Assembly: GCA_020343475.1 (NCBI GenBank)
Contig: CP070796.1
Location: forward strand, 72,314 to 87,358
Length of the DNA stretch: 15,045 nucleotides
Direction: 5' to 3'
From: Candidatus Zixiibacteriota bacterium
Lineage (GTDB): Bacteria; Zixibacteria; MSB-5A5; GN15; PGXB01
The notes below the pieces were generated by a model that saw only the letters and a list, made by a program, of their open reading frames with translations, did not search any database and was not told the DNA's origin. A program made the position numbers and the translations under genes. This document shows positions 672 to 14,197 of the stretch, piece by piece; the stretch's first letter is position 1, and each line of letters begins with the position of its first letter.

Positions 672-1779
672 TTACTCTCTTGCCGCATTCGCCGCAGAAC
701 TTCGAACCCGGGATCAGTTCCGCCGAGCAGTGCGGGCAGGTCATCTTGGCGTTAAGCTGGTGGCCGCATTTAAGGCAGAATTTCGCCTCGGTCGGCAGTT
801 CCTGGCCGCAGGAGGGACATTCGTTCTGCTTGACCATCATGTTTCCACAGCGGTAACAGTAGCGCGACTGTTCCGGTGTGTCGGCATGACATTTCGGGCA
901 GGTGACGGTGGCCACCGGTTCGCGGCGCAGGTCGGTTTGCTCCGGCTTGAAAACATTGGCCATGACACCCGGAAGCATCAATCCAACCCCGGCCGCCATA
1001 CCCATCCCGGCGCCAGTCCCGGCCGGGCCGCCGGGCGCGCCAAGCCCACGGGCCATCTCGAATTTCAAAAACCGGTCGAGATCACCGACAGCTTCCATAC
1101 CGGAACGCTGATCGATCAGTTTCGAGACATCTTCCGGAGGGGTAATGGATGAAATATAAAAATCAACCAGTTCCAGACCGTATTTCTCAAATTCGCTGCG
1201 GACAATTTCTTTAAAATCCTCGGCCAGCTCGGTATAGATTGCCGGTAATTCAAGAATGGTGTCCAGTTTCTCGCCCAGCAGGTCGTTCATGCGGGCGATG
1301 ATGACATCACGGAGATAACTCTGAATGTCGTTGGTGGTGTAGCGCGACTGCCGCCCGACAATGGAGTTGAGAAAGAGAATCGGGTTTTCGATCCTGAAGG
1401 TGAATGCCCCGTGGCCGCGCAGGCGGATCAGTCCCAGCTTGCTGTCCTGAAAAGTCACCGGATGCTTGGTGCCCCATTTCAGGTCGGTGAAAACCTTCAG
1501 ATTGACAAAATACACCTCCGCCCGAAACGGCGAATTGAAGCCAAACGGAAACGCTGCCAGACGTGTCAGGATCGGCAGGTTCATGGTTGTGAGAGTATGT
1601 CGTCCGGTGGTGAACGTATCGGCGGCATGGCCGCTCTTGAAAAAGATCGCGGTCTGGCTGTCGCGGACAATTAATTGCGCCCCAATTTTAAAATCGGCGG
1701 ATCCTTCCTGTGGTATCCGGTAAATCATTTCATCACCGGATGGATCCATCCATTCGATTACCTCAATAAGAATTGACAT
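637..1779 (-). CDS. SPFH/band-7 (stomatin/prohibitin/flotillin-like, COG4260/YdjI-like) protein with a C-terminal triple zinc-ribbon tail
   Basis: 380-aa ORF. The N-terminal approximately 270 aa resemble the band-7/SPFH family (start [20 protein letters not shown], typical of this family). A Gly/Ala/Met-rich linker follows. Three consecutive CxxC-x(9-12)-CxxC zinc-ribbon motifs close the protein (CPKC..CYRC, CPSC..CLKC, CPHC..CGEC). Confidence 0.85.
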
Positions 1780-2498: not shown

Positions 2499-4805
2499 AT
2501 GAAGAACACCAATCGACTAGCATGGGTAGCAATTGTGAGCATGCTTTTGCTGGCCGTGGCGGTCAGTGCCGGGACGCTTAAGACCAAGAGCAAGAAAATT
2601 GACGCTCCGCGGCTTACAGTCTCCGCGCTTAGCGATAAGACACTGCCACAGTATGTTCCGGCGGTATCCGCGGAAAAGCAATTCTTTGGTCCCAAGCAAG
2701 GCGGTGAGGACATAAGCACGGCGACCCCAATTCCGGGTCTGCCCTATGCGGATAATGGAACCACCGCAGGTGCCGCTGACGACTACGACCCCACTTTATC
2801 CGGCTACTGTTCCGCACCGACGGATGCCCCGGATGTGGTTTACTCATATACCCCCGCGGCTGGCGAGCTTATCAGCGTTACCAGCTGTAATTCCGCCTAC
2901 TGGACGCGACTGCTGATATACGAAAATGACAGCCTCAATCTGGTGGCCTGTAACCAGTACAGCGATAGTTGCGCCGATCCCTTTCATGCCGCCATTTTTG
3001 ACCAGATTGTCGTTCCTCCGAACACCTACTATATAGTAGTGGATGGTGGCCCTTCCGGCGGTGATCGCTTCGGCGAATATGAAATCCAGGTGACATCAAA
3101 GCCGCCGGTGGATACGCTGCGTATTCATCCCACATTGGGTGATGCCACTACCGATAATCTGATGCTGTCCTACCGCATCGAAGATTACGATTCGATAATC
3201 ATCTGGTCTTCCTCGGCCGACGACGGCGGCAGTTTCGGCAACAGTGTTTACTGGAGTTTGACTCCCGGCTGCGGGGATTATCCTTCTCTGGAATCCTGGG
3301 GGAACGGCTCGACCTTCCAAGGTACATACAGAATCCAGCCGGAATATGAAAATGGCGCGGTCATACCATGGATAGAGATCCTGAATTCAGCCGACAATGG
3401 TACGTGGTCGCACTGGTCCTGGAATTTCAAAGATCCCGGCGGATTCGATCTCCATGATATCATGGCGATTGATATCGCCGCCTGCAACAATTTGGAACCC
3501 TGGAAGTTTGGTTTTCTCTCGCTGGTTGCGAGCCTGAATTATTACGGCAGTCCTTACAATGATATTGAATTTATATTCTATCAGACCAGCGAGGATGGTT
3601 TTGCCACCATAAGCGCCTATGGTCTTGAAGGCTGTAATACCACCGCAAATGCCATTGACTCCGTTTCGAATAAGGCCTACGCCGCGTGGGACTTCTATGA
3701 CACCGATTCAAGCCGCTGGGCAATTGCCGTTCGCCAGGAAAGCTATGATAATTTCGATGACACTATTACTGCTTTCCCCGGCCTATATGGATTCTATGGC
3801 GGGACCGGGAATCTCCAGTATCAGGATATCGTGGCTTATGACAGCAATGTCCTGATTGTCTCGGAGTATTACGAGGATGGCACGCCCGACAATAAGGATC
3901 TTGTCTGTTCCTACGTCAACGACGCCGACTTCGGCATCGGCGAGGTCAGCTCCGTAACGATAGTGGAAACTGCGGATGCGGAGAGATTCCCGCGAATAAT
4001 TCATGTTGTTGATTCTTCATTCCTGGTGATCTTTGTTCGCAACGACTCCCTGTTTAAGGTCCTCACTGAGAACAACGGTGCCACCTGGGGCGTGCCTGAG
4101 TACGTAAGCATCGACGGTGATCTGGTTGTATCAGAGTACCGCACCGCCCATGTCTCCGAATCCGACGGTTATACCGCCAAGATTGTCTATTCATATTATG
4201 AGGGTGGAGGCAAGGCATACGACGGCCCGGTGTTTGTGCGACTTATAGAAACCTCCATTTATGAGTTTACTGACACCGATGGTGATGGTATTCAGGACAG
4301 TGAGGATAACTGCCCGAATGACTATAATCCGGAACAGACTGACCTCGACGAAGACGGACACGGTACCGAGTGCGATAATTGCCCGAACTTCTGGAATGAA
4401 GATCAGGCTGATAACGATGAAGATAATGTCGGTAACGTCTGCGATAACTGCATTGATGATCCCAATACCGATCAGTCCGACGTTGACGAGGACGACGTGG
4501 GCGATGTTTGCGACAACTGCCCGGATGTATACAATCCGGGTCAGGAAGACAGCAACGGCAATGACGTCGGTGACGCCTGTGATTATATCTGCGGTGATGC
4601 CAACAAGGACGAAGACATCAACCTGCTGGATATTCTCTACCTGATCGATTTTATCTATGGTAGCCCGACGGGCCCGGAACCTGATCCGTGGGAATCCGGG
4701 GATGTCAATGGTCCTGACGGTGACATCAACCTGCTGGATATTCTCTACCTGATCGATTTCATCTATGGTAGCCCAACGGGCCCGGATCCGGACTGCACTC
4801 CGTAG
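2499..4805 (+). CDS. Secreted multidomain protein: signal peptide, PPC-like jelly-roll, BNR/sialidase-like region, five thrombospondin type 3 (TSP3) calcium-binding repeats, and a C-terminal dockerin-like module
   Basis: 768-aa ORF. Signal peptide MKNTNRLAWVAIVSMLLLAVAVSA. PPC-like motif TYYIVVDGGPSGGDRFGEYEIQVT. BNR-like ENNGATWG. TSP3 repeats of the form DxDxDGxxDxxDNCPxxxNxxQxDxDxDGxGDxCD. The protein ends in two dockerin loop-helix repeats. Confidence 0.9.
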   Translation: MKNTNRLAWVAIVSMLLLAVAVSAGTLKTKSKKIDAPRLTVSALSDKTLPQYVPAVSAEKQFFGPKQGGEDISTATPIPGLPYADNGTTAGAADDYDPTLSGYCSAPTDAPDVVYSYTPAAGELISVTSCNSAYWTRLLIYENDSLNLVACNQYSDSCADPFHAAIFDQIVVPPNTYYIVVDGGPSGGDRFGEYEIQVTSKPPVDTLRIHPTLGDATTDNLMLSYRIEDYDSIIIWSSSADDGGSFGNSVYWSLTPGCGDYPSLESWGNGSTFQGTYRIQPEYENGAVIPWIEILNSADNGTWSHWSWNFKDPGGFDLHDIMAIDIAACNNLEPWKFGFLSLVASLNYYGSPYNDIEFIFYQTSEDGFATISAYGLEGCNTTANAIDSVSNKAYAAWDFYDTDSSRWAIAVRQESYDNFDDTITAFPGLYGFYGGTGNLQYQDIVAYDSNVLIVSEYYEDGTPDNKDLVCSYVNDADFGIGEVSSVTIVETADAERFPRIIHVVDSSFLVIFVRNDSLFKVLTENNGATWGVPEYVSIDGDLVVSEYRTAHVSESDGYTAKIVYSYYEGGGKAYDGPVFVRLIETSIYEFTDTDGDGIQDSEDNCPNDYNPEQTDLDEDGHGTECDNCPNFWNEDQADNDEDNVGNVCDNCIDDPNTDQSDVDEDDVGDVCDNCPDVYNPGQEDSNGNDVGDACDYICGDANKDEDINLLDILYLIDFIYGSPTGPEPDPWESGDVNGPDGDINLLDILYLIDFIYGSPTGPDPDCTP
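4272..4589 (+). other. Thrombospondin type 3 calcium-binding repeat array (about five repeats) inside the 2499-4805 CDS
   Basis: Asp-rich repeats DTDGDGIQDSEDNCPNDYNPEQTDLDEDGHGTECDNCPN... with a conserved DNCP/CDNC periodicity. Confidence 0.8.
4590..4802 (+). other. C-terminal dockerin-like module, copy 1 of 3 in this window: two 12-residue calcium-binding loops each followed by a LLDILYLIDFIYG helix, bracketed by Cys
   Basis: CGDANKDEDINLLDILYLIDFIYGSPTGPEPDPWESGDVNGPDGDINLLDILYLIDFIYGSPTGPDPDCTP. The loops fit D-x-[DN]-x-[DS]-x-x-x-[DN]-x-x-D of type I dockerin and EF-hand-like F-hand motifs. Confidence 0.8.
4614..4786 (+). repeat. Tandem direct repeat: two 65-bp copies (4614-4678 and 4722-4786) with 2 mismatches and a 108-bp period, encoding the two dockerin half-sites
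   Basis: gacatcaacctgctggatattctctacctgatcgatttYatctatggtagcccRacgggcccgga occurs twice. The remaining 43 bp of each unit have diverged. Confidence 0.9.
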
Positions 4806-4828
4806 ATCAAACCGCCTGAACAAAAAGA

Positions 4829-4861
4829 GAGGGACAGCCTATTTAGGCTGTCCCTTTTTTT
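4829..4861. terminator. Bidirectional rho-independent terminator between convergent genes
   Basis: AGGGACAGCC-tattt-AGGCTGTCCCT hairpin with a 10-11 bp GC-rich stem, followed by TTTTTTTG on the plus strand and flanked by CTCTTTTTG on the minus-strand side. Confidence 0.7.
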
Positions 4862-4898
4862 GTCTCCCGTACGGAAGCATCCTTCAAACGGGAATCTC

Positions 4899-6119
4899 TT
4901 AGAATTTCAATATGAATGAGGTCTGGGTGCGCAGGTTGTCGACCGCTTCACCGTCTTTATAGTCGGTTTTCCAGCGGGCGATTTCCACGCCGATAATGGC
5001 CTGCGAAATGATTGAATACTGAATATTACCGAAGACCGCTCGATTCTGAGAACGATCGCCGCTTGACAGATCCTCGTCATTGGGATTATCGTAGCCGAAT
5101 CCGGCGACAAGTTTGATCTTGGGGGACGGTTTCACCCAGGCGCTGGTCCAGCCGCCGAACGACTCCAGGCCGTCGACCAGGCTGTTGTTGGCAATAGCGC
5201 CGAGATAATTGCCGAGGTTGGAACCACTGTATACCTCACCCGAGAAGCCGTAATCGGAAGCGAATGAGAGCGCAAAATGCCCGGCAATCCCCCAGCTTTC
5301 GTACCTTTCGGATTTTCCCAGGTTGGTTTCGGCCTTAAGCTGGCCCCACAGACCGGAAATGCCGGCGCGAATAGAGTTGCCGCCCGGCAAGTCGTGCGTG
5401 ACGTCGATTCTGCTCTGGAAGGAAGGAATTCCGGCGTCAGTACCGTCGTCGGAACCATCGTTTTCCTCGCCCAGCGCCAGGGTGATGGTGGGCGTGAGAT
5501 CAGAACCGATTGTCCGGAAGAAACCGCCGGCCAGCGTAATATCGGTCTGCTCGTTCGGTGCAACCGTATAGGAAAGGCTGACCTGCGGACGGCGATAGCC
5601 TATATTACCGCATGACCAGAGCATCGAGTAATTCAGCGTCGACGGATCAAGCGGAGAGATCAGGTCAGATGTCTGCCCGGCCAGAACCGAAAAATTGCCA
5701 TTGCTTATTGAGAAGTACGCATGCCGCAATTGCAGCGTGGCTGTATTGTCGGCAACGGCTGCCCCGGTAGCTCCGGCATACAAATCCATCTCCAGTCTAC
5801 CGAATACCTCAATGGCTGAATATCCGGTTCCTTCTGCGGTGAAACCGAACCGGGATTGATTTGCGGTCATATTAAACTGCTCATCATCACTTTCATATGA
5901 TTTCGGTTCAACCCACATGATGGAATTACCATGACTGGTCAGGTTCTGATCGATAGCACCATCCAGTTTGAAATAACCGTACGGTTTGATGCTAATCGAC
6001 TGCTTATTATCGCCGTAAGCGGCAGCCGAGATCAGGAAGCACAGGCAAATAGATACCGCAACAAGGGTAAGTATTCTTCCCGTGCATGACCGTGAAGCAT
6101 TTGTGAGAGCTTTTTTCAT
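4899..6119 (-). CDS. Outer-membrane beta-barrel (porin-like) protein with signal peptide and C-terminal Phe
   Basis: The ORF in the track extends to 6245, but the likely start is the ATG at 6119 (MKKALTNASRSCTGRILTLVAVSICLCFLISAAAYG), preceded by a strong RBS GGGAGGG 5 nt upstream. The mature protein shows alternating amphipathic beta-strand character, is Gly/Ser/Asn/Tyr-rich, and ends ...TQTSFILKF. Confidence 0.8.
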   Translation of the reverse strand: MKKALTNASRSCTGRILTLVAVSICLCFLISAAAYGDNKQSISIKPYGYFKLDGAIDQNLTSHGNSIMWVEPKSYESDDEQFNMTANQSRFGFTAEGTGYSAIEVFGRLEMDLYAGATGAAVADNTATLQLRHAYFSISNGNFSVLAGQTSDLISPLDPSTLNYSMLWSCGNIGYRRPQVSLSYTVAPNEQTDITLAGGFFRTIGSDLTPTITLALGEENDGSDDGTDAGIPSFQSRIDVTHDLPGGNSIRAGISGLWGQLKAETNLGKSERYESWGIAGHFALSFASDYGFSGEVYSGSNLGNYLGAIANNSLVDGLESFGGWTSAWVKPSPKIKLVAGFGYDNPNDEDLSSGDRSQNRAVFGNIQYSIISQAIIGVEIARWKTDYKDGEAVDNLRTQTSFILKF

Positions 6120-6380
6120 AAGCCCTCCCTTTTTGGATGTTGATGTTAGGTGTTCCTTTTTTTCCATGTCTATACATATTATTTCGAACATTTTGCGATG
6201 AAATTGACTAATTTTTGAGATTTTATTGGCACGATCAGGAGGCAATTCAACGGGAGTGCCAATTCGGAGATTATTGGTCGGCTTTCTGTCGATTTCCCTG
6301 AATTTTTCTCGATTGGAGCCGGCAAAATCCCTACCAGTCGCGTCTTCTTTGTATATCCTGTTGCCGGAATAAAAGTTATC

Positions 6381-6408
6381 TTGACAAATGATTTTTTTGG
6401 GCTATTTT
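6381..6408 (+). promoter_or_regulatory. Sigma70-like promoter for the C1 protease gene (TTGACA-N16/17-TATTTT), with RBS AAAGGA 7 nt before the ATG at 6462
   Basis: TTGACA at 6381-6386 and TATTTT at 6403-6408. Confidence 0.35.
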
Positions 6409-6461
6409 GAGTCTAAGGCAGCTTTATTACCCATCACCTTTGGCCAGCAAAGGATACTATC

Positions 6462-7847
6462 ATGCGCGTTGCACCAATTTTTCTTCTCTCTATTCTTGTG
6501 TGTTTATTATCCTCAAGCCCATCTTCAGCCAATGACCGGCTGGAAGAGGAGTTTCAGGAAATTCAAAACAAAATTGAGCGGGAAGGGCTGAACTGGATTG
6601 CCAGGAAAAATCCGATAGTCGAGCAGATGACACCCGAAGAGCGTCAGCGGCTGAACGGCATCCGATTCCCTTCCAACTGGCGTGAAATCTGGGAATCGCA
6701 TCTTCGCGATGATTTTCAGGCGAAGTCAGCCACGGAACTGCCGGCGGCGTTTAACTGGGAGGATTCCGGCATGATTACCTCGGTTAAGAATCAGGGTGGG
6801 TGTGGATCCTGCTGGGATTTTTGTGCCACCGCAGCCTTCGAGGCGATATATAAGATACAGCGGCACAAGGACTTAGATATTTCAGAGCAGCATGTTCTGT
6901 CCTGCGTGTCACCGGGAGACGGCTGCAATGGAGGCTGGATGGATGACGCCTACAGTTATTATAAGTATGTCGGAGGCATTGACGAACAATGCATGCCGTA
7001 TCAGGCCAGCGATGATATTCCCTGCGCCAACGCCCAGGACTGCGACATCCTCGCGACTATTCGTGACTGGCAGGCTATTCCCAACAGCAGGCTGTCCATA
7101 AAAACCGCGGTCATGACTGCCCCGGTGGCGGTCGCTTTCACTGCCTACAACGATCTTTACTGGTATGGCGGGGGGTGTTACTACCATTCCGGCTATGATG
7201 ATGTCAATCATGGGGTTCTGATTGTTGGCTGGGACGATACCATGTGTGATGGCCAGGGTGCCTGGCGGGTTAAAAACAGCTGGGGCTACTGGTGGGGCGA
7301 CAACGGCTACTTCTGGATTCAGTATGATTGCTGCCACTTTGGTGTTGGCGCGGCGCTGCTTGAGATCGATACGACTCTCAATTTCCTGACCCCGCCACAA
7401 TTGCCGGTCGGCAGTATGTGCGCCGAATACAATTTCCAATTCGAGGCAACCGGAGGATTCACTCTCCCTTACAGCTATATCGTTCTCGACGGAAATCTCC
7501 CCCCGGGACTTATACTGGAACCGGACGGGCTTCTCCACGGCTTTTCGGAAAATGGGGGCAATTATGAGTTTACAGTTCGCGTTGCCGATGCTTTCTTTCC
7601 GGCCAGTTATTATTTTGATGACTTTACCTTAAGCGTCGAGGAGGCTCCCGAATGCGATGCCGATTGCAGTGGCGGGTTGAATCTAATCGATATACTTTAC
7701 ATGATTGATTACACATACAATGGGGGTCCGGATCCAATAACCGCCAGAAGTGGAGATTGCGATTGCTCTCGAGGATGCGATCTTCTTGATATTCTCTATC
7801 TGGTTGACTACCTTTATAATGAGGGGCCGGAGCCCTGTACTTATTGA
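6462..7847 (+). CDS. Secreted papain-like (family C1A) cysteine protease with pro-region, an Ig-like domain and a C-terminal dockerin-like module
   Basis: Signal peptide MRVAPIFLLSILVCLLSSSPSSA. Catalytic-Cys motif QGGCGSCWDF (Cys codon 6810-6812). His motif NHGVLIVGWDD (His codon 7209-7211). Asn motif WRVKNSWGYWWGDNGYFWI. C-terminal module (7651-7844) ECDADCSGGLNLIDILYMIDYTYNGGPDPITARSGDCDCSRGCDLLDILYLVDYLYNEGPEPCTY. Confidence 0.9.
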   Translation: MRVAPIFLLSILVCLLSSSPSSANDRLEEEFQEIQNKIEREGLNWIARKNPIVEQMTPEERQRLNGIRFPSNWREIWESHLRDDFQAKSATELPAAFNWEDSGMITSVKNQGGCGSCWDFCATAAFEAIYKIQRHKDLDISEQHVLSCVSPGDGCNGGWMDDAYSYYKYVGGIDEQCMPYQASDDIPCANAQDCDILATIRDWQAIPNSRLSIKTAVMTAPVAVAFTAYNDLYWYGGGCYYHSGYDDVNHGVLIVGWDDTMCDGQGAWRVKNSWGYWWGDNGYFWIQYDCCHFGVGAALLEIDTTLNFLTPPQLPVGSMCAEYNFQFEATGGFTLPYSYIVLDGNLPPGLILEPDGLLHGFSENGGNYEFTVRVADAFFPASYYFDDFTLSVEEAPECDADCSGGLNLIDILYMIDYTYNGGPDPITARSGDCDCSRGCDLLDILYLVDYLYNEGPEPCTY

Positions 7848-8002
7848 TCAGGGCATGGTATTACCTGCCGGGAAAATGCAATAATTGTTTCCCATCATGA
7901 TAAAAAAGATGATAAGGCGCGGCTTTTTCAAAATAACACACTTGGTCCAGCCGGAAGCGGCAGTGGCGCCGGCTATCCGGGGGCGGCGTGAGTGGGGGCG
8001 GA

Positions 8003-8030
8003 GAAATTTCCCTTGTTTCAGAACAAACCG
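8003..8030 (+). promoter_or_regulatory. Sigma70-like promoter for the C25 protease gene (TTGTTT-N16-TATACT)
   Basis: TTGTTT at 8003-8008 and TATACT at 8025-8030. A strong RBS GGAGAGGA at 8123-8130 sits 5 nt before the ATG at 8136. Confidence 0.3.
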
Positions 8031-8129
8031 GCCTTATACTAATTATAGAGGAACGCGGATTCATTCTTTGGTTTTGGCATTGAATCCTAATTGCGGATGT
8101 GAAAATTACGATAAGGTCCATAGGAGAGG

Positions 8130-11100
8130 ATGAGTATGTGCAGAAAGCTGTTCATGTCAGCGATCCTGGTTCTGGCTACAGTAGCAATGGTCTCCGCTGA
8201 ACGGATTGAACTGGGTACCATCAGTGATGATATTGCTGTAACGGTCGAGGAATCTGGCGAAGCGCGTATTGTTGTTCGCTATGATATCGGTGCCTTTGAA
8301 AGGGAGGCGGTCATTGTTAACGGCGAGTTGTATTATTCAATCAGGTGCGGTGACGAGGCTTTCCTGTTAAGGGAGGGGGAGCCGGAATTGCCGCATGTCA
8401 GCCGGAGTGTTATTATCCCCGATAATGCCAAAATGGCGGCCAGGATAATTTCCTCGGAATATGTTGACTACATTGAGACACCGGTAATTTCATCCAAAGG
8501 CAACCTTTTGCGCACGGTCAATCCGGCCGACATTCCCTACAGTTTCGGCCCGGTTTATGCCGACAACGCCTTTTACCCCAAAAAGATCGTGAGCCTTCGC
8601 GATCCCTTTATTCTGAGGGATTTCCGGGGGACGGTAGTTGAACTGTATCCTTTTCAGTATAATCCGGCAGCGCGGACGCTGCGCGTATATTCATCTGTGA
8701 CGGTCGAAATTATCAATACCGGGCCGGGGGAGATAAACGTCTTCGAGCGCACCAAGAAAGAACCGAATTTCATTCCCGATTTCAGCCTGATATATCAGCG
8801 GCGCTTCATCAATTATGACGTCTTTGCCAAAGTATATCCGGAGGTTATGGAGTCGGGCGACATGCTCGTCATTACCTATGATCTGTTTCATTCTGCAATG
8901 ATACCGCTTGTTAATTGGAAACGTCAGAAAGGCATCAGAACTTTTATTGTCGACGTTTCCACGATCGGCAACAACAGTACCAGCATCGCGAACTACATCC
9001 AGGACTTTTACGATGCTGACAGTACCAATCTGGCCTGGGTCCTTCTGGTTGGCGACGCCTCGCAGGTCGCTACGCCGTATGCATCCGGCGGCGCTTCCGA
9101 TCCCAGCTATGCCAAGGTTTCCGGATCGGATAATTATCCGGACATCATCATCGGCCGTTTATCGGCGCAAACCATTGCTGACGTGGAAACCCAGGTGGAG
9201 CGAACCATAACATATGAAGTCAATCCCCCCGGTGGTGACTGGTTCCATCAGGCCACCGGAATCGCGTCGGCCGAAGGGCCAGGGCACGGCGGCGAATATG
9301 ATTATCAGCACATGGATAATATTCGCGATGATCTGCTTGCTTTCACATATACGCTGGTCGACCAGATTTATGATCCCGGCGCCACCGACGCGCAGGTAGC
9401 CGCCGCGGTCAATGATGGGCGCAGTCTTGTCAATTATTGTGGCCACGGCGGGCCGACCAGCTGGTCGACATCGTACTTCAACAATGCTGATGTCAATGCC
9501 CTTACCAATGATAATCTCCTGCCGTTTGTATTCAGTGTTGCCTGTAACAATGGCCAATTCGACTCGTACACCTGCTTTGCCGAAGCCTGGATGCGGGCCA
9601 CTCACAATGGGATTCCCACCGGTGCCATCGCGACCTACATGTCATCCATCCTCCAGTCCTGGTCGCCGCCAATGGATGCCCAGGATGAGGCCTGTGATCT
9701 TCTGGTGTCAATGGCCAAGACCACCGTTGGCGGGCTTTGTTATAACGGCTCGTGCAAGATGATTGAACTAAACGGCAGCGACGGAGTCAGCATGTATAAC
9801 ACCTGGCACATCTTCGGCGACCCGTCGGTGCAGATCTGGACTGATACGCCGGAACCGATGACGGTCAATCATGCCGATGCGGTTTTCTTTGTCGCCGAGG
9901 AATATGAAGTGGACGTGGTGGACGTGGAGGGCGCCCTCTGCGCGCTTTATTTTGACGGCGTTCTTTACGGTGCCGCATATACCGACATTAACGGTCACGC
10001 GGTCATTCCCATCTCGGACTTTCTGCCGATTGGAGAGGATGTGCTGCTGACCGTTACGGCATTTAATCGCGAGACGTATGTCGGCAGCGTGACGACCACC
10101 TCTGATCTGGCAATTATCCACCAGCCGCCGCTGGAGGATACGAAGGACACCCTCAACGATTACGATGTCTATTGCATGATTTATACTTCCGCGCCGTTAA
10201 TTGCCGATTCATTGTTGCTGAAGTACCAGATCAATTCCGTTTGGTATCTTGATACTCTGGAAGCGGTTGGCCCGGAAGGCGAATATGTCGGCACCATTCC
10301 CGCTCAGTCTGCCGGCACTGATGTTGTTTATTATATGGTGGCGGCCAATACTGGCGGTTTCATTGACTCGACCGTGGTCTATTCGTTCCGCGTCATTGAC
10401 TACGGCGTGAAACTGGATCCATCGTATGCATATCAAGTTGCCCCGGTGGACGATACGGTCTGGTACAGCCTTACCGTCACCAATGACGGGGTTCTGGAAG
10501 ACTCTTACAGTCTCAGCGTCATCGACAATTCCTGGGAAACGGCGCTCTTGGATGAAACCGGCACGATTCCGGTTACCGTAAGCACCTCGCTTTTCGGGGG
10601 GGAAGGATTCAATTTCAGGGTTCGTGTGATTATTCCGTTTAGCTGGGAGGATGAGTTCGACTCAATTGGGATTGTGGCGACTTCGGTAGCCGACGGCAAT
10701 TACAGTGCCACGGCTGCACTCAAAACCATCTCGGCCGGGCAGCCGTGGGAGATACCGTTCAGCGAAACCTTCCCGTTTGACACCTTTGACATGCATAAAT
10801 GGGAGGAGGTCACGGGGGCCGAAATAAATGAGCTGGGTCTTAATGAACCGACTCCATTGTACAGCTGCAATCTGAACGGTGATCCCAACCAGGGAGATAC
10901 AATCATCACGGAAAAAATCGATCTTCGGGACGCCGTAAATGCTCTTGTCCGTTACAGTTACCAGCGGACCGGAGGCGGCGAATCGCCCGACAGCGGTGAT
11001 GATTTGTATGCTGAATATCTTGATTCCCTCGGTAGCTGGGTTCAACTCCAGAGCCATCCCGGCGCGGGCGAGGACATGCTTGATTTTGAACAGGTGGAAA

Positions 11101-13313
11101 TACAGCTTCCCTCCGGCGCCTGGCATGCAGGCTTCCGTCTGAGGATACGTTGTGACGCCTCAACCGGCCCCTATGATGACTGGTTTGTGGACGACATTTA
11201 TATCGGCCTGCCGCCGGATTACGCCGTTGTCGTTGCTCCGGGCAATCAGTCGCAGTACGGCCCGGCTGGCGATACTGCCGCTTACACTATCATGCTGTTT
11301 AATCGCGGCGTTCAGGATGATCATTATGATCTCAGTTCATCCGGCGGCACCTGGGACATTAGCTTCTTTGATGAAAGCGGTCAGGTGCAGATTACGGCGA
11401 CCGATCTGATCGCAGCTGGCGATTCGGAACGAGTCACGGTTAAAGTAGCGATTCCATCAGATGCCATTATGAACGAGTCGGATGAAGCGATCCTTCTCGC
11501 AACCTCGCAGGGCGATCCGGGTATTTCCGCGTCCGCTTATGTAACCACGTACTCTGCGGGCCTGCCGGGGGGATTTCCCTGGTTTGAACCATTTCCGCAC
11601 GATACCATCGCTTCCGCTCGTTGGCTGTTCGTGATCGGTGCTCAGGTCACCGACGCCGCCATTGCGCCGCCATCGAGTCCGTATGCATTAAATCTGGATG
11701 GGGGCAATGATACTGTTGTATCGCAGCCGATTAATCTCTCCGGCGTTTCCGACGCCCTCCTGTCTTACTATTATCAGAGCGGCGGCAGTGAAGATGCGCC
11801 GGAATCCGGCGATAATCTTACGGTTGAATACAAAAACCAGTTCGGCGAATGGGTTGTCGCTCGGATTCATCAGGGCGGGGTGGCGACCATGTCGAGCTTC
11901 GAATGGGTCTGGATCGGGCTGCCTGCTGAGGCAGGTCACGGCGGCTTCCAGATCAGGTTCACGTCAATGGGTTCTGCGGCAGGTCTTGACAACTGGTATA
12001 TCGACGATATCCGCGTCGATCATGCCCCTGCGATATCGGTGACTCCCGCCCTATTCCAGCATACGCTGCTGCTGGGAGACTCGACGTTCGATGAATTGGT
12101 TATCAGCAACGATGGTCCGGGGATGCTGAGATATTCGGTAACCTCGGTGCCAATGTTGAATCTGCGCAGCGGATTTGCTGATTTACTGGCCGCGGGCCTG
12201 GTGGAGCCGGCGTCGCGGACATATCCTGACGGCTTTTTCGACTATGAAGATCTTAAAGGGATTGACGATCCCCGGGTCGGATTCCCCGTGGAGCGCGGGG
12301 CCGGGGGACCGGATCTTTTTGGACATTACTGGATAGATTCCGACGAATCGGGCGGGCCGGCTTTCGCCTGGGAAGATATCTCGGCAACCGGCATCGACGT
12401 TACCGGCAGCCTGACAGATGATAATTACAGCGGCCCGTATCAGCTCGGTTTCGATTTCTCCTTCTATGGCCAGATTTACAGCGAGTTTTACATCAGTTCC
12501 AACGGCCTGATCGGATTTGATTCAACCAATCTGAAATCCAGGCATAAAAAATCGATCCCGAACGATACTGCCCCGAACGCTATTGTGGCCTGGCTTTGGG
12601 ATGACCTCAATCCGGAAGACAGCGACAACCCCGGTGCGCAGGTCTATTATGATACAACCGGCGGGCGGTGTGTTATTATGTTTGTCGATTATCCGGAGTA
12701 CAGCGCCGGCCCCGGCGACGTGATTACCGCCGAAGTTATTCTGGAAGCCGATGGCACGATCAAGTTTCAGTATTTGAATATCGCGAGCGGTTTTGATATC
12801 GGGTCTGCGACTGTCGGGATTGAAAGCCCCGATGGTACCGATGGTCTGGAGGTGGCTTTTCTGACTGAATATGTTCACGACAGTCTGGCCGTCCAGTTCT
12901 TCAAGCCATACCAGTGGTTGACGCTTGACCGGGGATCAGGAGAACTGGCTCCCGAAGAAGCGGATACCATTACCTGCAAGTTTACCTCTGCAGAACTGGA
13001 GCAAGGATTATACTCGGCCAATATTATTATTGGCAGCAATGATCCTGATCCGGCCGACAATCCCTGGACGGTTGTTGCCGAACTTGAGATATTAACAGAG
13101 CCGCCGTTTATCTGCGGTGATGTCAACGATGACGATAATGTCGATCTTCTGGATCTGCTGTTTATTATCGCCTTTCTCTACGAAGACGGCCCGGCTCCGG
13201 GCAATCCGGACGCGGCCGACGTGGACGCGTCGGGTTCGTGCGATTTGATTGATATTCTCAATCTGATTGATTTTCTTTACGGAGAGGAGGGAGTAAAACT
13301 CGAGTGCCCGTAG
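8130..13313 (+). CDS. Giant secreted gingipain-like (family C25) cysteine protease with Ig/CARDB-like repeats, two MAM-like jelly-roll domains and a C-terminal dockerin-like module
   Basis: 1727-aa ORF. The functional start is probably the ATG at 8136, by RBS spacing. Signal peptide MCRKLFMSAILVLATVAMVSA. C25 catalytic dyad motifs NYCGHGGPTSW (His codon 9444-9446) and FVFSVACNNGQFD (Cys codon 9543-9545). Two paralogous roughly 150-aa MAM-like domains lie at about 10740-11210 and 11575-12010. C-terminal module (13112-13310) CGDVNDDDNVDLLDLLFIIAFLYEDGPAPGNPDAADVDASGSCDLIDILNLIDFLYGEEGVKLECP. Confidence 0.9.
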   Translation: MSMCRKLFMSAILVLATVAMVSAERIELGTISDDIAVTVEESGEARIVVRYDIGAFEREAVIVNGELYYSIRCGDEAFLLREGEPELPHVSRSVIIPDNAKMAARIISSEYVDYIETPVISSKGNLLRTVNPADIPYSFGPVYADNAFYPKKIVSLRDPFILRDFRGTVVELYPFQYNPAARTLRVYSSVTVEIINTGPGEINVFERTKKEPNFIPDFSLIYQRRFINYDVFAKVYPEVMESGDMLVITYDLFHSAMIPLVNWKRQKGIRTFIVDVSTIGNNSTSIANYIQDFYDADSTNLAWVLLVGDASQVATPYASGGASDPSYAKVSGSDNYPDIIIGRLSAQTIADVETQVERTITYEVNPPGGDWFHQATGIASAEGPGHGGEYDYQHMDNIRDDLLAFTYTLVDQIYDPGATDAQVAAAVNDGRSLVNYCGHGGPTSWSTSYFNNADVNALTNDNLLPFVFSVACNNGQFDSYTCFAEAWMRATHNGIPTGAIATYMSSILQSWSPPMDAQDEACDLLVSMAKTTVGGLCYNGSCKMIELNGSDGVSMYNTWHIFGDPSVQIWTDTPEPMTVNHADAVFFVAEEYEVDVVDVEGALCALYFDGVLYGAAYTDINGHAVIPISDFLPIGEDVLLTVTAFNRETYVGSVTTTSDLAIIHQPPLEDTKDTLNDYDVYCMIYTSAPLIADSLLLKYQINSVWYLDTLEAVGPEGEYVGTIPAQSAGTDVVYYMVAANTGGFIDSTVVYSFRVIDYGVKLDPSYAYQVAPVDDTVWYSLTVTNDGVLEDSYSLSVIDNSWETALLDETGTIPVTVSTSLFGGEGFNFRVRVIIPFSWEDEFDSIGIVATSVADGNYSATAALKTISAGQPWEIPFSETFPFDTFDMHKWEEVTGAEINELGLNEPTPLYSCNLNGDPNQGDTIITEKIDLRDAVNALVRYSYQRTGGGESPDSGDDLYAEYLDSLGSWVQLQSHPGAGEDMLDFEQVEIQLPSGAWHAGFRLRIRCDASTGPYDDWFVDDIYIGLPPDYAVVVAPGNQSQYGPAGDTAAYTIMLFNRGVQDDHYDLSSSGGTWDISFFDESGQVQITATDLIAAGDSERVTVKVAIPSDAIMNESDEAILLATSQGDPGISASAYVTTYSAGLPGGFPWFEPFPHDTIASARWLFVIGAQVTDAAIAPPSSPYALNLDGGNDTVVSQPINLSGVSDALLSYYYQSGGSEDAPESGDNLTVEYKNQFGEWVVARIHQGGVATMSSFEWVWIGLPAEAGHGGFQIRFTSMGSAAGLDNWYIDDIRVDHAPAISVTPALFQHTLLLGDSTFDELVISNDGPGMLRYSVTSVPMLNLRSGFADLLAAGLVEPASRTYPDGFFDYEDLKGIDDPRVGFPVERGAGGPDLFGHYWIDSDESGGPAFAWEDISATGIDVTGSLTDDNYSGPYQLGFDFSFYGQIYSEFYISSNGLIGFDSTNLKSRHKKSIPNDTAPNAIVAWLWDDLNPEDSDNPGAQVYYDTTGGRCVIMFVDYPEYSAGPGDVITAEVILEADGTIKFQYLNIASGFDIGSATVGIESPDGTDGLEVAFLTEYVHDSLAVQFFKPYQWLTLDRGSGELAPEEADTITCKFTSAELEQGLYSANIIIGSNDPDPADNPWTVVAELEILTEPPFICGDVNDDDNVDLLDLLFIIAFLYEDGPAPGNPDAADVDASGSCDLIDILNLIDFLYGEEGVKLECP

Positions 13314-13333
13314 GGGCATGCTATCATACCTTG

Positions 13334-13368
13334 AAACGGGATGGCAGATTACCGCCGTCCCGTTTTTA
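13334..13368 (+). terminator. Rho-independent terminator after the C25 protease gene
   Basis: AACGGGATGGC-agattacc-GCCGTCCCGTT forms an 11-bp stem with one G-U wobble and an 8-nt loop, followed by TTTTTATT. Confidence 0.65.
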
Positions 13369-13387: not shown

Positions 13388-14197
13388 TCAGGTCAGCCGG
13401 ATGGTACCATCCTGCACCACAACAAGCCCGTCCTTTTGGAGGGATTTTAAAGCGGCCATGGTCAATTCCCGTTGATGATGTTTGCTGTTCAGCAGTGATG
13501 CAAGATTGATTCTGTTTCTTATTGTCAGCCATCTGATAATTTCACCCCGAATTTGCCTGCGGGAATCGGGAAAACGCGACTGTTTTGTCAGCGGAGGGAG
13601 ATTAGCAAGGCGCCTGGGCAGAAAAATCCGGCTGTAGTCCATAAGGGCATTGTGCCAATCCCGCGAACGATTTTTAGGCAGAAGGCGTTGCGCAATGACT
13701 TCGAGCTGCTCTCTTATGGTCGAACCGGGCAGCCCAAATTCATGAAGAATCACGCGGCGGATATTGGTGTCGACGGTGATCAAAGGCATATTGTAAGCGA
13801 AAATGAGGATGGCACGGGCGGTATACGGACCGATGCCCGGGAAAGATTGCAGGGTATCGGGGTCATTGGGAAGTTTTCCGTCAAACTCAGAGACCACTTT
13901 TTTCGCCAGCTGGCCAAGAAAGAGGGCGCGGCGGTTGTATCCGAGTCCGACCCACGCCGTCAGAAGCTGGCGATTGGTGGCTTTCGCCAGTTGTTTCCAG
14001 GATGGCCATTTTTCAATCCAGGCAAGATATTTGGGGACGACTCGACTTGCCTGAGTCTGTTGCAGCATGATTTCCGCTACCGTTATCCGGTACGGATCGG
14101 TTGTTTCCCGAAATGGCAATACCCTGCGATTCCGACGGTAGAATCTCCATATCTTTCGCCGAAAGGTCCGAATCCGATTGGGTGTCAAAGCATTCAT
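13388..14197 (-). CDS. MutY/endonuclease III-like HhH-GPD DNA glycosylase, completely Cys-free: no [4Fe-4S] cluster loop and no NUDIX-like C-terminal domain
   Basis: 269 aa, clearly alignable to the E. coli MutY catalytic domain. AEIMLQQTQ matches SEVMLQQTQ, with the catalytic Glu conserved. LGYNRRA matches LGYYARA. HhH-GPD FPGIGPYTARAIL. VDTNIRRV matches VDGNVKRV, with the catalytic Asp conserved. There is no Lys at the EndoIII lyase position. The sequence contains no cysteines. Confidence 0.85.
   Translation of the reverse strand: MNALTPNRIRTFRRKIWRFYRRNRRVLPFRETTDPYRITVAEIMLQQTQASRVVPKYLAWIEKWPSWKQLAKATNRQLLTAWVGLGYNRRALFLGQLAKKVVSEFDGKLPNDPDTLQSFPGIGPYTARAILIFAYNMPLITVDTNIRRVILHEFGLPGSTIREQLEVIAQRLLPKNRSRDWHNALMDYSRIFLPRRLANLPPLTKQSRFPDSRRQIRGEIIRWLTIRNRINLASLLNSKHHQRELTMAALKSLQKDGLVVVQDGTIRLT

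What the first reader, a model, noticed from the sequence alone, without database searches (positions are those of the whole stretch)
2499..13313. Three unrelated secreted proteins, two cysteine proteases and a TSP3/BNR protein, share one Cys-bracketed dockerin-like C-terminal module
The proteins ending at 4802, 7844 and 13310 each terminate in two copies of a 12-residue D-x-[DN]-x-[DS]-x-x-x-[DN]-x-x-D calcium-binding loop. Each loop is followed by an (I/L)LD(I/L)L(Y/N/F)(L/M/I)(I/V)D(F/Y)(I/L/T)Y helix and then a G-P-[DEA]-P motif. The whole module begins with a Cys and ends with a Cys 1-3 residues before the C-terminus (CTP, CTY, CP). This is the type I dockerin / F-hand signature. In gingipain-like C25 proteases the C-terminus is normally a T9SS sorting domain, and none is present here. 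A conserved C-terminal tag on a gingipain-like C25 protease, a papain-like C1 protease and a TSP3/BNR/PPC adhesin-like protein implies one of two things. It could be a cellulosome-style cohesin-dockerin assembly of a proteolytic, not glycolytic, surface complex, or a novel C-terminal sorting/anchoring signal. No cohesin, scaffoldin or sortase-like partner is visible in the window.
Basis: partly seen in the sequence, partly recalled or inferred. Interest (0 to 1): 0.85.

Follow-up and report, generated by a model that had tools for sequence, protein, structure and literature searches.

The report
Dockerin-tagged secreted proteases in Zixibacteria
Three neighbouring secreted proteins of an uncultured Zixibacteria genome, two of them cysteine proteases, end in a genuine calcium-binding dockerin module locked by a likely disulfide, which probably plugs them into cohesin-bearing surface proteins found elsewhere in this phylum, a design already proposed for a sister phylum.

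Summary
ORFs 2499-4805, 6462-7847 and 8130-13313 each end in a 64-71 residue module made of two F-hand loop-helix repeats, bracketed by cysteines.

It is a type I dockerin, not a new sorting signal.
- Pfam Dockerin_1 scores above its threshold for two of the three modules.
- The third module is 46% identical to the first (E=1e-14).
- An AlphaFold model (pLDDT 96.9) matches only solved dockerins.

The first Cys sits at the known "intramolecular clasp" position. Across relatives, cysteine counts at the start of the module and in its tail match in 85 of 89 modules, which implies a disulfide clasp.

The window comes from a Zixibacteria MAG. The three-gene cluster is conserved in a relative whose C25 ortholog is 56% identical. 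About 57% of proteins carrying this dockerin subtype are peptidases.

No cohesin lies in the window, and the rest of its genome could not be searched. Zixibacteria do encode cohesin–dockerin adaptor proteins. Related cohesin proteins, one encoded next to such an adaptor, carry T9SS anchor domains.

A cellulosome-like proteolytic complex with C25-dockerin enzymes was already proposed for Cloacimonadota. This is therefore a new member of a known kind, and all evidence is bioinformatic.

The parts
2499..4805 (+). Gene A: secreted 768-aa non-catalytic protein. It has a signal peptide, an N-terminal region of about 565 aa with unknown fold, TSP3-like calcium-binding repeats, and a C-terminal dockerin.
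   Evidence: ORF. Pfam Dockerin_1 26.5 bits and TSP_3 21.9 bits. No Pfam family in aa 1-584 and no PDB sequence match. A 769-aa ortholog with the same architecture lies in synteny in L001.
4266..4589 (+). TSP3-like Asp/Cys-rich calcium-binding repeats of protein A (aa ~590-697).
   Evidence: Pfam TSP_3 below threshold. NCBIfam hits to TSP3-containing families at E=2e-20 and 3.5e-18, both far below their cut-offs. Motif matches at aa 592, 605, 625, 638, 648.
4590..4802 (+). Dockerin module of A (aa 698-768). It has two F-hand repeats, Cys698 at the clasp position -1, and Cys766 in the tail.
   Evidence: Dockerin_1 33.1 bits, E=6e-8 on the module alone. The two halves are 92% identical over 77 nt (4608-4684 versus 4716-4792).
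6462..7847 (+). Gene B: secreted 461-aa papain-family (C1) cysteine peptidase with an Ig-like He_PIG domain and a Cys-rich dockerin variant.
   Evidence: Peptidase_C1 172.4 bits at aa 93-289 (nt 6738-7328) and He_PIG 26.5 bits at aa 321-379 (nt 7422-7598). The catalytic motifs QGGCGSCW, NHGVLIVGW and KNSWG are visible in the translation. Orthologs in L001 and L054.
7653..7844 (+). Dockerin module of B (aa 398-461): a six-Cys variant.
   Evidence: No Pfam hit even at E<=10, but 46% identical to module A, E=1e-14. Both loops fit the strict F-hand pattern. The variant is conserved in the L001 ortholog and in P0121.
8130..13313 (+). Gene C: secreted 1727-aa gingipain-like C25 cysteine peptidase. 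It has a propeptide, a catalytic domain, an Ig-like domain, about 1000 aa of beta-sandwich domains, and a C-terminal dockerin.
   Evidence: Pfam: Propeptide_C25 90.2 bits (aa 49-209, nt 8274-8756); Peptidase_C25 198.7 bits (aa 245-568, nt 8862-9833); Peptidase_C25_C 32.7 bits (nt 9849-10091); Reelin_subrepeat-B 31.7 bits (nt 10902-11207). It is 100% identical to P0001, NCBI JSV44_00310, Candidatus Zixiibacteriota MAG.
13113..13310 (+). Dockerin module of C (aa 1662-1727). It has Cys1663 at position -1 and Cys1726 in the tail, plus an extra Cys at loop-2 position 8.
   Evidence: Dockerin_1 42.2 bits, E=9e-11. AlphaFold2 pLDDT 96.9 with three helices. The Foldseek PDB top 31 hits are all dockerins, TM 0.64-0.82.
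4830..4855 (.). GC-rich hairpin between the convergent gene A and the outer-membrane-protein-like gene. It is a likely bidirectional terminator.
   Evidence: 11-pair stem, 7 GC pairs, T-runs on both sides.
13333..13366 (+). Terminator-like hairpin just after gene C. It marks the end of a probable B-C transcription unit.
   Evidence: 13-pair stem with a T-run. No comparable site lies in the 283-nt B-C gap.

Best explanation
The shared C-terminal module is a bona fide type I-like dockerin. It has two calcium-binding F-hand loop-helix repeats that form a three-helix domain.

Its two ends are tied by a disulfide. One Cys sits at position -1, immediately before the conserved Gly-Asp that opens loop 1. 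The other sits in the C-terminal tail. This is a covalent version of the 'intramolecular clasp' known from clostridial and ruminococcal dockerins.

The three genes form a conserved Zixibacteria cluster of secreted proteins: a TSP3-repeat protein of unknown function, a papain-like C1 peptidase, and a gingipain-like C25 peptidase. After Sec export and oxidative folding, the dockerin most likely binds cohesin modules on other proteins in a Ca2+-dependent way.

Such cohesin-bearing proteins exist in the phylum:
- Adaptors with the order cohesin, Ig, dockerin, dockerin, cohesin.
- Cohesin proteins that end in a T9SS C-terminal domain and would be attached to the outer membrane surface.

Docking would concentrate a mostly proteolytic enzyme set on the cell surface.

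Shown: dockerin identity and fold, the cysteine covariation, conservation of the cluster, the peptidase-rich cargo, and the existence of cohesins in Zixibacteria.

Inferred: the disulfide itself, binding to cohesins, surface location, and the presence of a partner in this particular genome.
For: Dockerin identity:
- Pfam Dockerin_1 scores above threshold for A and C.
- B's module is homologous to A's.
- A seven-module profile hits almost only solved dockerins in the PDB; 28 of 31 matches, best E=4.5e-5.
- The AF2 model has pLDDT 96.9, and its top 31 Foldseek hits are all dockerins.

Clasp:
- Slutzki et al. 2013 place clasp residues at -1 to -3 before G0 and at the C-terminus (PMC3821032).
- Here Cys is at -1 and in the tail.
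- In 81 relatives, N-terminal and tail Cys occur together in 60, tail only in 16, N-terminal only in 0, and neither in 5.
- In 89 C-terminal modules with no other Cys, the count of (N-terminal + loop-2 position 4) Cys equals the tail Cys count in 85.
- The model shows a beta-bridge between loop-2 residue 39 and residue 65, next to Cys66.

Conservation:
- Nearly all Zixibacteria C25 orthologs end in this module.
- The A-B-C order is conserved in L001-L003; L004 and L005 begin just upstream of C.
- At least three more dockerin proteins occur in the same MAG.

Cargo:
- 23 of 40 proteins with this dockerin subtype are peptidases (S8, M14, C10, M1, M28, C25, C1).
- L006 carries five consecutive dockerin-tagged peptidases.

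Partners:
- P0298, P0318 and P0346 carry Pfam Cohesin above threshold plus two dockerins.
- Sources name this family as Zixibacteria.
- The family's N-terminal domain folds as a cohesin: pLDDT 89.5, Foldseek top 50 all cohesins, best E=2e-10.
- A gene for a protein with the same cohesin domain, an Ig domain and a T9SS CTD lies directly upstream of an adaptor gene in L052.
- A cohesin-like domain sits just before this dockerin subtype in C10 peptidases from five of the seven sampled genomes that carry this subtype.

Precedent: Cloacimonadota.
Against: - No cohesin is encoded in the window. HMMs for the N- and C-terminal cohesins found nothing in its ORFs, and Pfam found no Cohesin in A or C.
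- The rest of this MAG could not be searched, so a partner in the same genome is not shown.
- None of the cohesin-bearing proteins found comes demonstrably from this MAG or its closest relatives.
- Specificity between these cohesins and the NLLDILYLID-type dockerin is untested.
- How a dockerin protein without a T9SS CTD crosses the outer membrane is unknown.
- Module C has three Cys and module B has six, so the simple one-disulfide picture does not cover everything.
- No coordinates were available to measure the Cys-Cys distance.
- Everything rests on sequence analysis and prediction.
Confidence: 0.6

Rival explanations
1. Orphan dockerins. The modules are true dockerin folds but have no cohesin partner in this organism. 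They act as calcium- and disulfide-stabilised C-terminal domains that bind something else (outer-membrane protein, LPS or exopolysaccharide, substrate protein), or they simply stabilise the exported enzymes.
For: No cohesin was found in the window or in the flanks of the closest relatives. Dockerin-like modules are very abundant: 59,273 cluster representatives at E<=1e-3. From general knowledge (Peer et al. 2009, cited in PMC8542988), many genomes hold dockerins without recognisable cohesins.
Against: Cohesins, including cohesin+dockerin adaptors and cohesin proteins with a T9SS CTD, do exist in Zixibacteria and related sequences. A cohesin-like domain is fused to this very dockerin subtype in several genomes. 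The residues at the usual recognition positions (10-11 and 17-18 of each repeat: LL or LI, then ID, VD or IA) are similar in all three window modules (read directly from the sequences), as expected for a shared partner.
Confidence: 0.27
2. Novel C-terminal sorting or anchoring signal. The Cys-bracketed module is recognised by a secretion or attachment machinery, as the T9SS CTD or PEP-CTERM are, and is removed or covalently attached.
For: The position is strictly C-terminal, with a conserved Cys-Pro end in most orthologs. Paralogous Zixibacteria C25 peptidases carry a T9SS CTD in the same position.
Against: - The fold and profile are those of a dockerin.
- There is no hydrophobic helix or basic tail, and no match to any NCBIfam or Pfam sorting domain.
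- The same module occurs internally, in tandem arrays of up to 13, and in proteins that also end in a T9SS CTD, so it is not itself the export tag.
- Canonical dockerins are also usually C-terminal.
Confidence: 0.08
3. Coincidental calcium-binding repeats with no common origin or function.
For: B's module fails the Pfam model.
Against: Pairwise E=1e-14 between B and A. The six repeats form a DNA-level family. The module is conserved in orthologs at 50-70% identity.
Confidence: 0.01

Closest known systems
Type I dockerins of clostridial and ruminococcal cellulosomes (Pfam PF00404; e.g. PDB 4FL4, 4UYQ, 2MTE, 6KGF)
   Same: Two 12-residue F-hand calcium loops, each followed by a helix. C-terminal position on secreted enzymes. 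Predicted three-helix fold superposes at TM 0.7-0.8 and rmsd 1.4-2 A. A stabilising contact links residue -1 to the C-terminal tail (clasp, PMC3821032).
   Different: - The clasp residues are a Cys pair (a likely disulfide) rather than aromatic-Pro, hydrophobic or salt-bridge contacts. The clasp paper and a 2025 review mention no natural disulfide clasp.
- The host is a diderm FCB-group bacterium.
- The cargo is mostly peptidases rather than glycoside hydrolases.
- The putative recognition positions are hydrophobic (LL or LI), not Ser-Thr.
Cellulosome-like complex proposed for Cloacimonadota 'Ca. Stygibacter' (Williams et al. 2021, PMC8542988)
   Same: An uncultured FCB-group diderm. Signal-peptide enzymes with C-terminal dockerins, including a gingipain-like C25 peptidase and an S8 peptidase. 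Cohesin-bearing scaffoldin with a T9SS-type C-terminal domain for surface attachment. Proposed role in polypeptide degradation.
   Different: - A different phylum.
- The partners found here are small adaptors (two cohesins and two dockerins) and single-cohesin T9SS proteins, rather than one 3755-aa scaffoldin with CBMs.
- The cargo here looks almost purely proteolytic.
- That paper, as read, does not mention the Cys bracket.
- Both cases are purely genomic predictions.
Dockerin-bearing peptidases of true cellulosomes (C. thermocellum S8 protease double dockerin Clo1313_0689, PDB 8X39/8X3A; R. flavefaciens cysteine peptidase binding ScaE)
   Same: Proteases carrying dockerins that dock to cell-surface cohesins. 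8X39 is among the sequence and fold matches. The topic is reviewed in PMC12484212, and peptidases among R. flavefaciens dockerin proteins are described in PMC2930009.
   Different: There the proteases are minor accessory components of a glycan-degrading machine. Here peptidases are the main cargo class.
T9SS cargo with C-terminal sorting domain (gingipains RgpB/Kgp; Pfam PF18962)
   Same: C25 catalytic domain, propeptide and Ig-like domain. Zixibacteria paralogs do carry the T9SS CTD.
   Different: The window protein has no CTD. A helical calcium-binding dockerin occupies the C-terminus instead of a beta-sandwich CTD.

Membership tests
Dockerin type I (Pfam PF00404) | Profile match at or above the curated gathering score (22.9 bits) | tested here: met
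   A scores 26.5 bits in the whole protein and 33.1 alone. C scores 36.5 and 42.2. B has no hit at E<=10, but B is 46% identical to A's module, E=1e-14. A profile that includes B hits solved dockerins.
Dockerin type I (Pfam PF00404) | Two duplicated F-hand segments: a 12-residue loop with Asp/Asn at positions 1, 3, 5, 9 and 12, followed by a helix | tested here: met
   Five of six loops fit D-x-[DN]-x-[DS]-x3-[DN]-x2-D exactly. Loop 2 of A fits with a one-residue insertion.
Dockerin type I (Pfam PF00404) | Three-helix dockerin fold | tested here: met
   AF2 on module C with a 46-sequence alignment gives pLDDT 96.9 and helices at 13-24, 33-36 and 46-57. The Foldseek PDB top 31 hits are all dockerins (4fl4_A TM 0.81, rmsd 1.9 A over 67 columns). 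A and B were not modelled.
Dockerin type I (Pfam PF00404) | Calcium-dependent binding to a cohesin module | not testable with these tools
   Needs binding assays or complex prediction. Neither was available.
Cohesin-dockerin (cellulosome-like) system | Cohesin-bearing partner encoded in the same genome | not testable with these tools
   The MAG (contig 2.85 Mb, JSV44) is not in the gene-position index and did not appear in the genome-contig scan. No cohesin is found in the 15-kb window.
Cohesin-dockerin (cellulosome-like) system | Cohesins present in the lineage, with a means of surface anchoring | tested here: met
   - Pfam Cohesin is at or above threshold in P0298, P0318 and P0346.
- The family is named Zixibacteria by its sources.
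- Its N-terminal domain has a cohesin fold.
- P0430 carries the same cohesin domain (HMM E=3e-58), Big_9 and a T9SS CTD, and its gene lies next to adaptor P0351 in L052. P0432, P0434, P0436, P0437 and P0444 have PF00963 plus PF18962 on record.
- The taxonomy of these last six proteins is not named by their sources.
T9SS C-terminal sorting domain (PF18962 / TIGR04183) | Profile match to a ~80-100 aa beta-sandwich CTD at the C-terminus | tested here: not met
   No Por_Secre_tail or NCBIfam T9SS CTD hit in A, B or C. The C-terminus is helical. Paralogs with a CTD end in ...NYPNPFNP...K.
Tripartite sorting signals (PEP-CTERM, LPXTG, GlyGly-CTERM and similar) | Short motif, then a hydrophobic transmembrane helix, then a basic tail at the extreme C-terminus | tested here: not met
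   The sequences end ...GPDPDCTP...GPEPCTY and ...GVKLECP with no hydrophobic stretch. No NCBIfam hit.
Peptidase C25 (gingipain family) | Full-length match to the catalytic domain and propeptide | tested here: met
   Peptidase_C25 198.7 bits over profile positions 1-373 of 374. Propeptide_C25 90.2 bits. Peptidase_C25_C 32.7 bits. CGHG and SVACNNG motifs, which I take to hold the catalytic His and Cys, are visible. Catalytic competence was not otherwise tested.
Peptidase C1 (papain family) | Profile match plus the catalytic Cys, His and Asn | tested here: met
   Peptidase_C1 172.4 bits. The motifs GGCGSCW, NHGVLIVGW and KNSWG are present in the translation.
Thrombospondin type 3 repeat (PF02412) | Profile match at or above the gathering score (25 bits) | tested here: inconclusive
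   21.9 bits, E=1.4e-4. NCBIfam TSP3-containing families hit at E=2e-20 but far below their cut-offs. Repeated D-x-D-x-D-G / C-x-N-C motifs are present.
   No Pfam family at E<=10 in aa 1-584. Only two Asp-box-like motifs, SADDGGSF at 239 and TENNGATW at 523.

The most novel reading that the evidence does not exclude
Zixibacteria build a dedicated proteolytic counterpart of the cellulosome on a diderm surface. Disulfide-clasped dockerins tag a large repertoire of peptidases (C25, C1, C10, S8, M14, M1, M28). These dock onto small cohesin-dockerin adaptors and onto cohesin proteins that the T9SS attaches to the outer membrane. The conserved A-B-C cluster in this window would encode a core cargo set, with the TSP3 protein acting as a non-catalytic substrate-binding or structural subunit. 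Some peptidases that carry both a cohesin-like domain and a dockerin could polymerise head to tail.
Probability: 0.4. Interest if true: 0.65.

Novelty: new member of a known kind. Interest (0 to 1): 0.45.

Why it matters
If the docking model is right, a widespread but uncultured sediment phylum organises extracellular protein degradation with the same modular assembly logic that Clostridia use for cellulose, but on an outer membrane. Anchoring would be by the T9SS instead of S-layer homology domains or sortase. That bears on how buried organic nitrogen is recycled.

It would also extend cohesin-dockerin biology beyond plant-cell-wall degradation, adding to the one genomic proposal for Cloacimonadota.

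A naturally disulfide-clasped dockerin would be of practical interest for designer scaffolds, because clasp integrity controls dockerin stability and cohesin binding. The value is limited because the domain is already recognised by standard annotation and nothing here is experimental.

Tried and rejected
- Looking up the window's own contig by exact protein (B, and P0001 = C) failed, because the MAG is not in the gene-position index. The genome could therefore not be searched for cohesins or counted for dockerins.
A single-module query worked, but it did not return the window's genome.
- A domain-only query to the search for homologous proteins returned only short fragments, so it could not give cargo architectures.
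- The profile search of 1.84 billion representatives was dominated by multi-dockerin proteins and carries no taxonomy. It did supply the cohesin lead.
- Pfam and PDB sequence searches of protein A's N-terminal 584 aa found nothing. For the gene at 4899-6245, Pfam found nothing and PDB gave only four chance-level matches at E>=0.12.
- Pfam Cohesin on the internal cohesin-like domain of the C10 peptidases gave only 12 bits. That domain is called cohesin-like only through its HMM link to the N-terminal cohesin of the adaptor family.
- Flanks of the closest relatives (L001-L005, L054) show no cohesin gene.
- Peer et al. 2009 could not be read.
- Literature searches for Zixibacteria with dockerin or cohesin found nothing.
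- No tRNA or Rfam feature lies in the window.
- A strict 'even number of Cys' rule was rejected, since 3- and 5-Cys modules exist. The position-specific covariation is the better test.


Full report
**What is in the window**

The window holds three + strand genes:
- A: 2499-4805, 768 aa.
- B: 6462-7847, 461 aa.
- C: 8130-13313, 1727 aa.

All three start with signal-peptide-like sequences.

Pfam assigns the following:
- B: Peptidase_C1 (172 bits) and a He_PIG Ig domain.
- C: Propeptide_C25, Peptidase_C25 (199 bits, full length), Peptidase_C25_C, a Reelin_subrepeat-B-like domain and Dockerin_1 (36.5 bits).
- A: Dockerin_1 (26.5 bits) and a sub-threshold TSP_3 match.

The first 584 residues of A match no Pfam family and no PDB sequence. 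Only two Asp-box-like motifs are present.

Protein C is 100% identical to NCBI JSV44_00310 from a Candidatus Zixiibacteriota MAG, on a 2.85-Mb contig.

**The observation**

The C-terminal modules lie at these positions:

| Protein | Residues | Nucleotides |
|---|---|---|
| A | 698-768 | 4590-4802 |
| B | 398-461 | 7653-7844 |
| C | 1662-1727 | 13113-13310 |

Each begins with Cys, holds two loop-helix repeats, and has a Cys one to three residues from the end. Five of six loops fit the strict 12-residue F-hand pattern. Loop 2 of A has a one-residue insertion.

The six helix-coding segments form a six-copy family even at DNA level. The two halves of A's module are 92% identical over 77 nt.

The modules alone score 33.1 bits (A) and 42.2 bits (C) against Dockerin_1, whose threshold is 22.9. 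B's six-Cys variant is missed by Pfam, but it is 46% identical to A's module, E=1e-14.

**What the module is**

- A profile of seven modules, including B-type ones, finds almost only solved dockerins in the PDB: 28 of 31 matches, best E=4.5e-5.
- AlphaFold2 on module C with a 46-sequence alignment gives pLDDT 96.9 and three helices.
- Its 31 best Foldseek matches in the PDB are all cohesin-binding dockerins, with TM 0.64-0.82 and rmsd 1.4-3.7 A.
- No T9SS CTD or other sorting domain is detected by Pfam or NCBIfam.
- There is no hydrophobic tail.

Related modules also occur internally, in tandem arrays of up to 13, and in proteins that also end in a T9SS CTD. The module is therefore a folded interaction domain and not an export tag.

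**The cysteine bracket**

Slutzki et al. 2013 showed that dockerins are stabilised by an 'intramolecular clasp'. It links a residue at -1 to -3 before the conserved Gly (G0) to a residue at the C-terminus. Clasp mutants lose stability and cohesin binding (PMC3821032).

Here the first Cys is exactly at -1 (C-G-D...), and the second is in the tail.

- Among 81 two-loop modules of relatives, the N-terminal and tail Cys co-occur in 60. The tail Cys occurs alone in 16, mostly alongside a Cys in loop 2. The N-terminal Cys never occurs alone. Neither is present in 5.
- In 89 C-terminal modules without other Cys, I compared the number of Cys at -1 plus loop-2 position 4 with the number of tail Cys. 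The counts were 0/0 in 5, 1/1 in 58, 2/2 in 22 and 2/1 in 4.
- The model has a beta-bridge between loop-2 residue 39 and residue 65, next to Cys66.

I infer one or two disulfides that clasp the tail to the N-terminus and to loop 2. The clasp paper does not use the word disulfide, and a 2025 review mentions no natural disulfide clasp in bacterial dockerins. I could not measure distances, and the odd third Cys in C and the six Cys in B remain unexplained.

**Conservation and cargo**

- Nearly all Zixibacteria C25 orthologs at 50-70% identity end in this module. Some paralogs end in a T9SS CTD instead.
- The order Band_7, then A, B, C is kept in a relative whose C25 is only 56% identical. The B-type Cys-rich variant is kept there too.
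- A closer relative keeps the order outer-membrane-protein-like gene, then C1, then C25.
- The same MAG holds at least three further dockerin-tagged (partial) proteins. NCBI already names one of them 'dockerin type I repeat-containing protein'.
- Another Zixibacteria genome has five consecutive dockerin-tagged peptidases in the order C25, M14, C25, M14, C25.
- A scan of GTDB representative genomes with module A returned 45 loci, mostly Zixibacteria MAGs.
- Of 40 proteins carrying this subtype, 36 hit Dockerin_1 and 23 are peptidases: S8 (7), M14 (5), C10 (4), M1 (3), M28 (2), C25 (1), C1 (1). No glycoside hydrolase family appears among the 25 commonest families.

**The partner question**

No cohesin lies in the window. 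The MAG itself could not be searched.

The profile search of 1.84 billion representatives found 59,273 proteins at E<=1e-3. Among them were proteins whose C-termini looked cohesin-like. Pfam confirms Cohesin above threshold in P0298, P0318 and P0346, each preceded by two dockerins.

Searching with this family gave 103 relatives. Eight are labelled Zixibacteria by their sources, and about 30 have PF00963 on record.

Their N-terminal domain, modelled from Zixibacteria protein P0354 (pLDDT 89.5), has 50 of 50 top PDB matches to cohesins, best E=2e-10. The family is therefore a cohesin, Ig, dockerin, dockerin, cohesin adaptor.

More distant members combine cohesin and Ig domains with a T9SS CTD. 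In locus L052, a gene for a protein with the same cohesin domain, Big_9 and a T9SS CTD lies directly upstream of an adaptor gene, and three more cohesin-like genes follow, at least two of them ending in a T9SS CTD.

An HMM of this cohesin also detects a domain placed just before the C-terminal dockerin, at E=2e-9 to 2e-5. The proteins are mostly C10 peptidases with a PKD domain, and they come from five of the seven sampled genomes that carry this dockerin subtype. Pfam's own Cohesin model gives only 12 bits there.

**Mechanism proposed**

1. Sec export and oxidative folding. This is inferred from the signal peptides and the Cys covariation.
2. Ca2+-dependent folding of the dockerin. This is established for the family and not tested here.
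3. Docking to cohesins on adaptors or on T9SS-anchored surface proteins. This is inferred. Such partners are shown in the phylum but not in this genome.
4. The result would be a surface-bound, mainly proteolytic enzyme assembly.

The residues at the usual recognition positions are similar in all six repeats: LL or LI at positions 10-11, and ID, VD or IA at 17-18. The two halves of A are nearly identical. Both points fit a shared partner and a dual binding mode, again by inference.

How CTD-less proteins cross the outer membrane is unknown.

**Comparison with what is known**

- Dockerin-bearing proteases are known in true cellulosomes. Examples are the C. thermocellum S8 protease double dockerin (PDB 8X39), a R. 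flavefaciens cysteine peptidase, and the peptidases among the 222 R. flavefaciens dockerin proteins.
- The closest precedent is Williams et al. 2021. For Cloacimonadota they proposed a cellulosome-like complex with C-terminal dockerins on GH18, GH57, S8 and a gingipain-like C25 peptidase, plus a cohesin scaffoldin with a T9SS-type CTD (PMC8542988).
- No paper in the library links Zixibacteria with dockerin or cohesin.

**Verdict**

The finding is real and correctly identified as a dockerin. It is a new member of a known kind. The new points are the phylum, the likely disulfide clasp, the conserved three-gene cluster, the peptidase-dominated cargo, and the small cohesin-dockerin adaptors.

- Interest: 0.45.
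- The modules are dockerins: about 0.97.
- They work by cohesin docking in this organism: about 0.6.

Noticed in passing
window 4899-6245 (- strand): A 448-aa ORF between genes A and B on the opposite strand. It has a signal-like hydrophobic segment, is rich in Gly, Ser and aromatic residues, and ends ...SFILKF like an outer-membrane beta-barrel. No Pfam or NCBIfam match; the PDB sequence search gave only four chance-level matches at E>=0.12. A 399-aa gene sits in the same position next to C1-C25 in L054, but not in L001. It may be a porin for peptide uptake.
   Followed up: partly
window 4608-4684 and 4716-4792: The two halves of protein A's dockerin are 92% identical over 77 nt. This is far more than in B or C and suggests recent internal duplication or gene conversion. 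The result is a nearly perfectly symmetric dockerin.
   Followed up: partly
window ~14316-15045 (+ strand, runs off the end): Start of a PAAR-domain protein (MGQPAARVGDQTAHGG...GDMHTCP...), a T6SS spike-tip type. In L001 and L054 a PAAR gene directly follows the C25 gene. In the window an HhH-GPD glycosylase gene (13388-14197, - strand) lies between them.
   Followed up: partly
window 637-1779 (- strand): SPFH/Band_7 protein (225 bits) fused to several C-terminal zinc ribbons (DZR). It is a conserved upstream neighbour of the dockerin cluster in L001.
   Followed up: no
window 13236-13238 (Cys1703 of C) and module B 7653-7844: Module C and its closest orthologs (P0002, P0003) carry a third Cys at loop-2 position 8. 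Module B has six Cys, at position 0 and loop-1 position 4, at loop-2 positions 2, 4 and 8, and in the tail. The simple clasp model does not assign partners to these.
   Followed up: partly
L018:2222-4270, L019:8156-10204, L017:2836-4941, L008 (two ORFs: 5756-7903 and 8054-10210), L013:8024-10222 (the ORF in L013 that the cohesin HMM hit begins at 5752, a different ORF): Proteins in Zixibacteria-type genomes with the order Peptidase_C10, PKD, cohesin-like domain, dockerin. Both halves of a cohesin-dockerin pair sit in one chain, which could allow head-to-tail polymers or self-capping.
   Followed up: partly
L052:7389-8810 and 10001-11998 (GCA_964447175.1): A gene for a protein with the same cohesin domain, Big_9 and a T9SS CTD lies directly upstream of a cohesin, Ig, dockerin, dockerin, cohesin adaptor gene. 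Three more cohesin-like genes follow, at least two of them ending in a T9SS CTD. The layout resembles a scaffoldin gene cluster of a diderm.
   Followed up: partly
L006:10001-24797 (GCA_041394985.1): Five consecutive dockerin-tagged peptidase genes in the order C25, M14, C25-like/He_PIG, M14, C25.
   Followed up: no
P0199-P0211: Proteins with 8-13 tandem dockerin modules. Some are fused to a C-terminal S8 subtilase, and one to a PG_binding_1 domain. Their taxonomy and role are unknown.
   Followed up: partly
P0055, P0058, P0069, P0070, P0073, P0074: Zixibacteria C25/InhA-like_MAM proteins end in what looks like a single F-hand ('half dockerin'...GDVNASC.FNG.DVTY.VAY.KGG...). It is flanked by Cys pairs and followed by a basic, low-complexity tail.
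   Followed up: no
L037 (CAYWLR010000012.1) and other loci: MAGs labelled 'uncultured Ignavibacteriaceae' (binchicken bins) and one labelled 'Planctomycetota' (CP070790.1) carry Zixibacteria-type dockerin proteins. One of them is a 1721-aa protein ending ...FIYNEGPEPTCP like the C25 peptidase P0004. The taxonomic labels are probably wrong.
   Followed up: no
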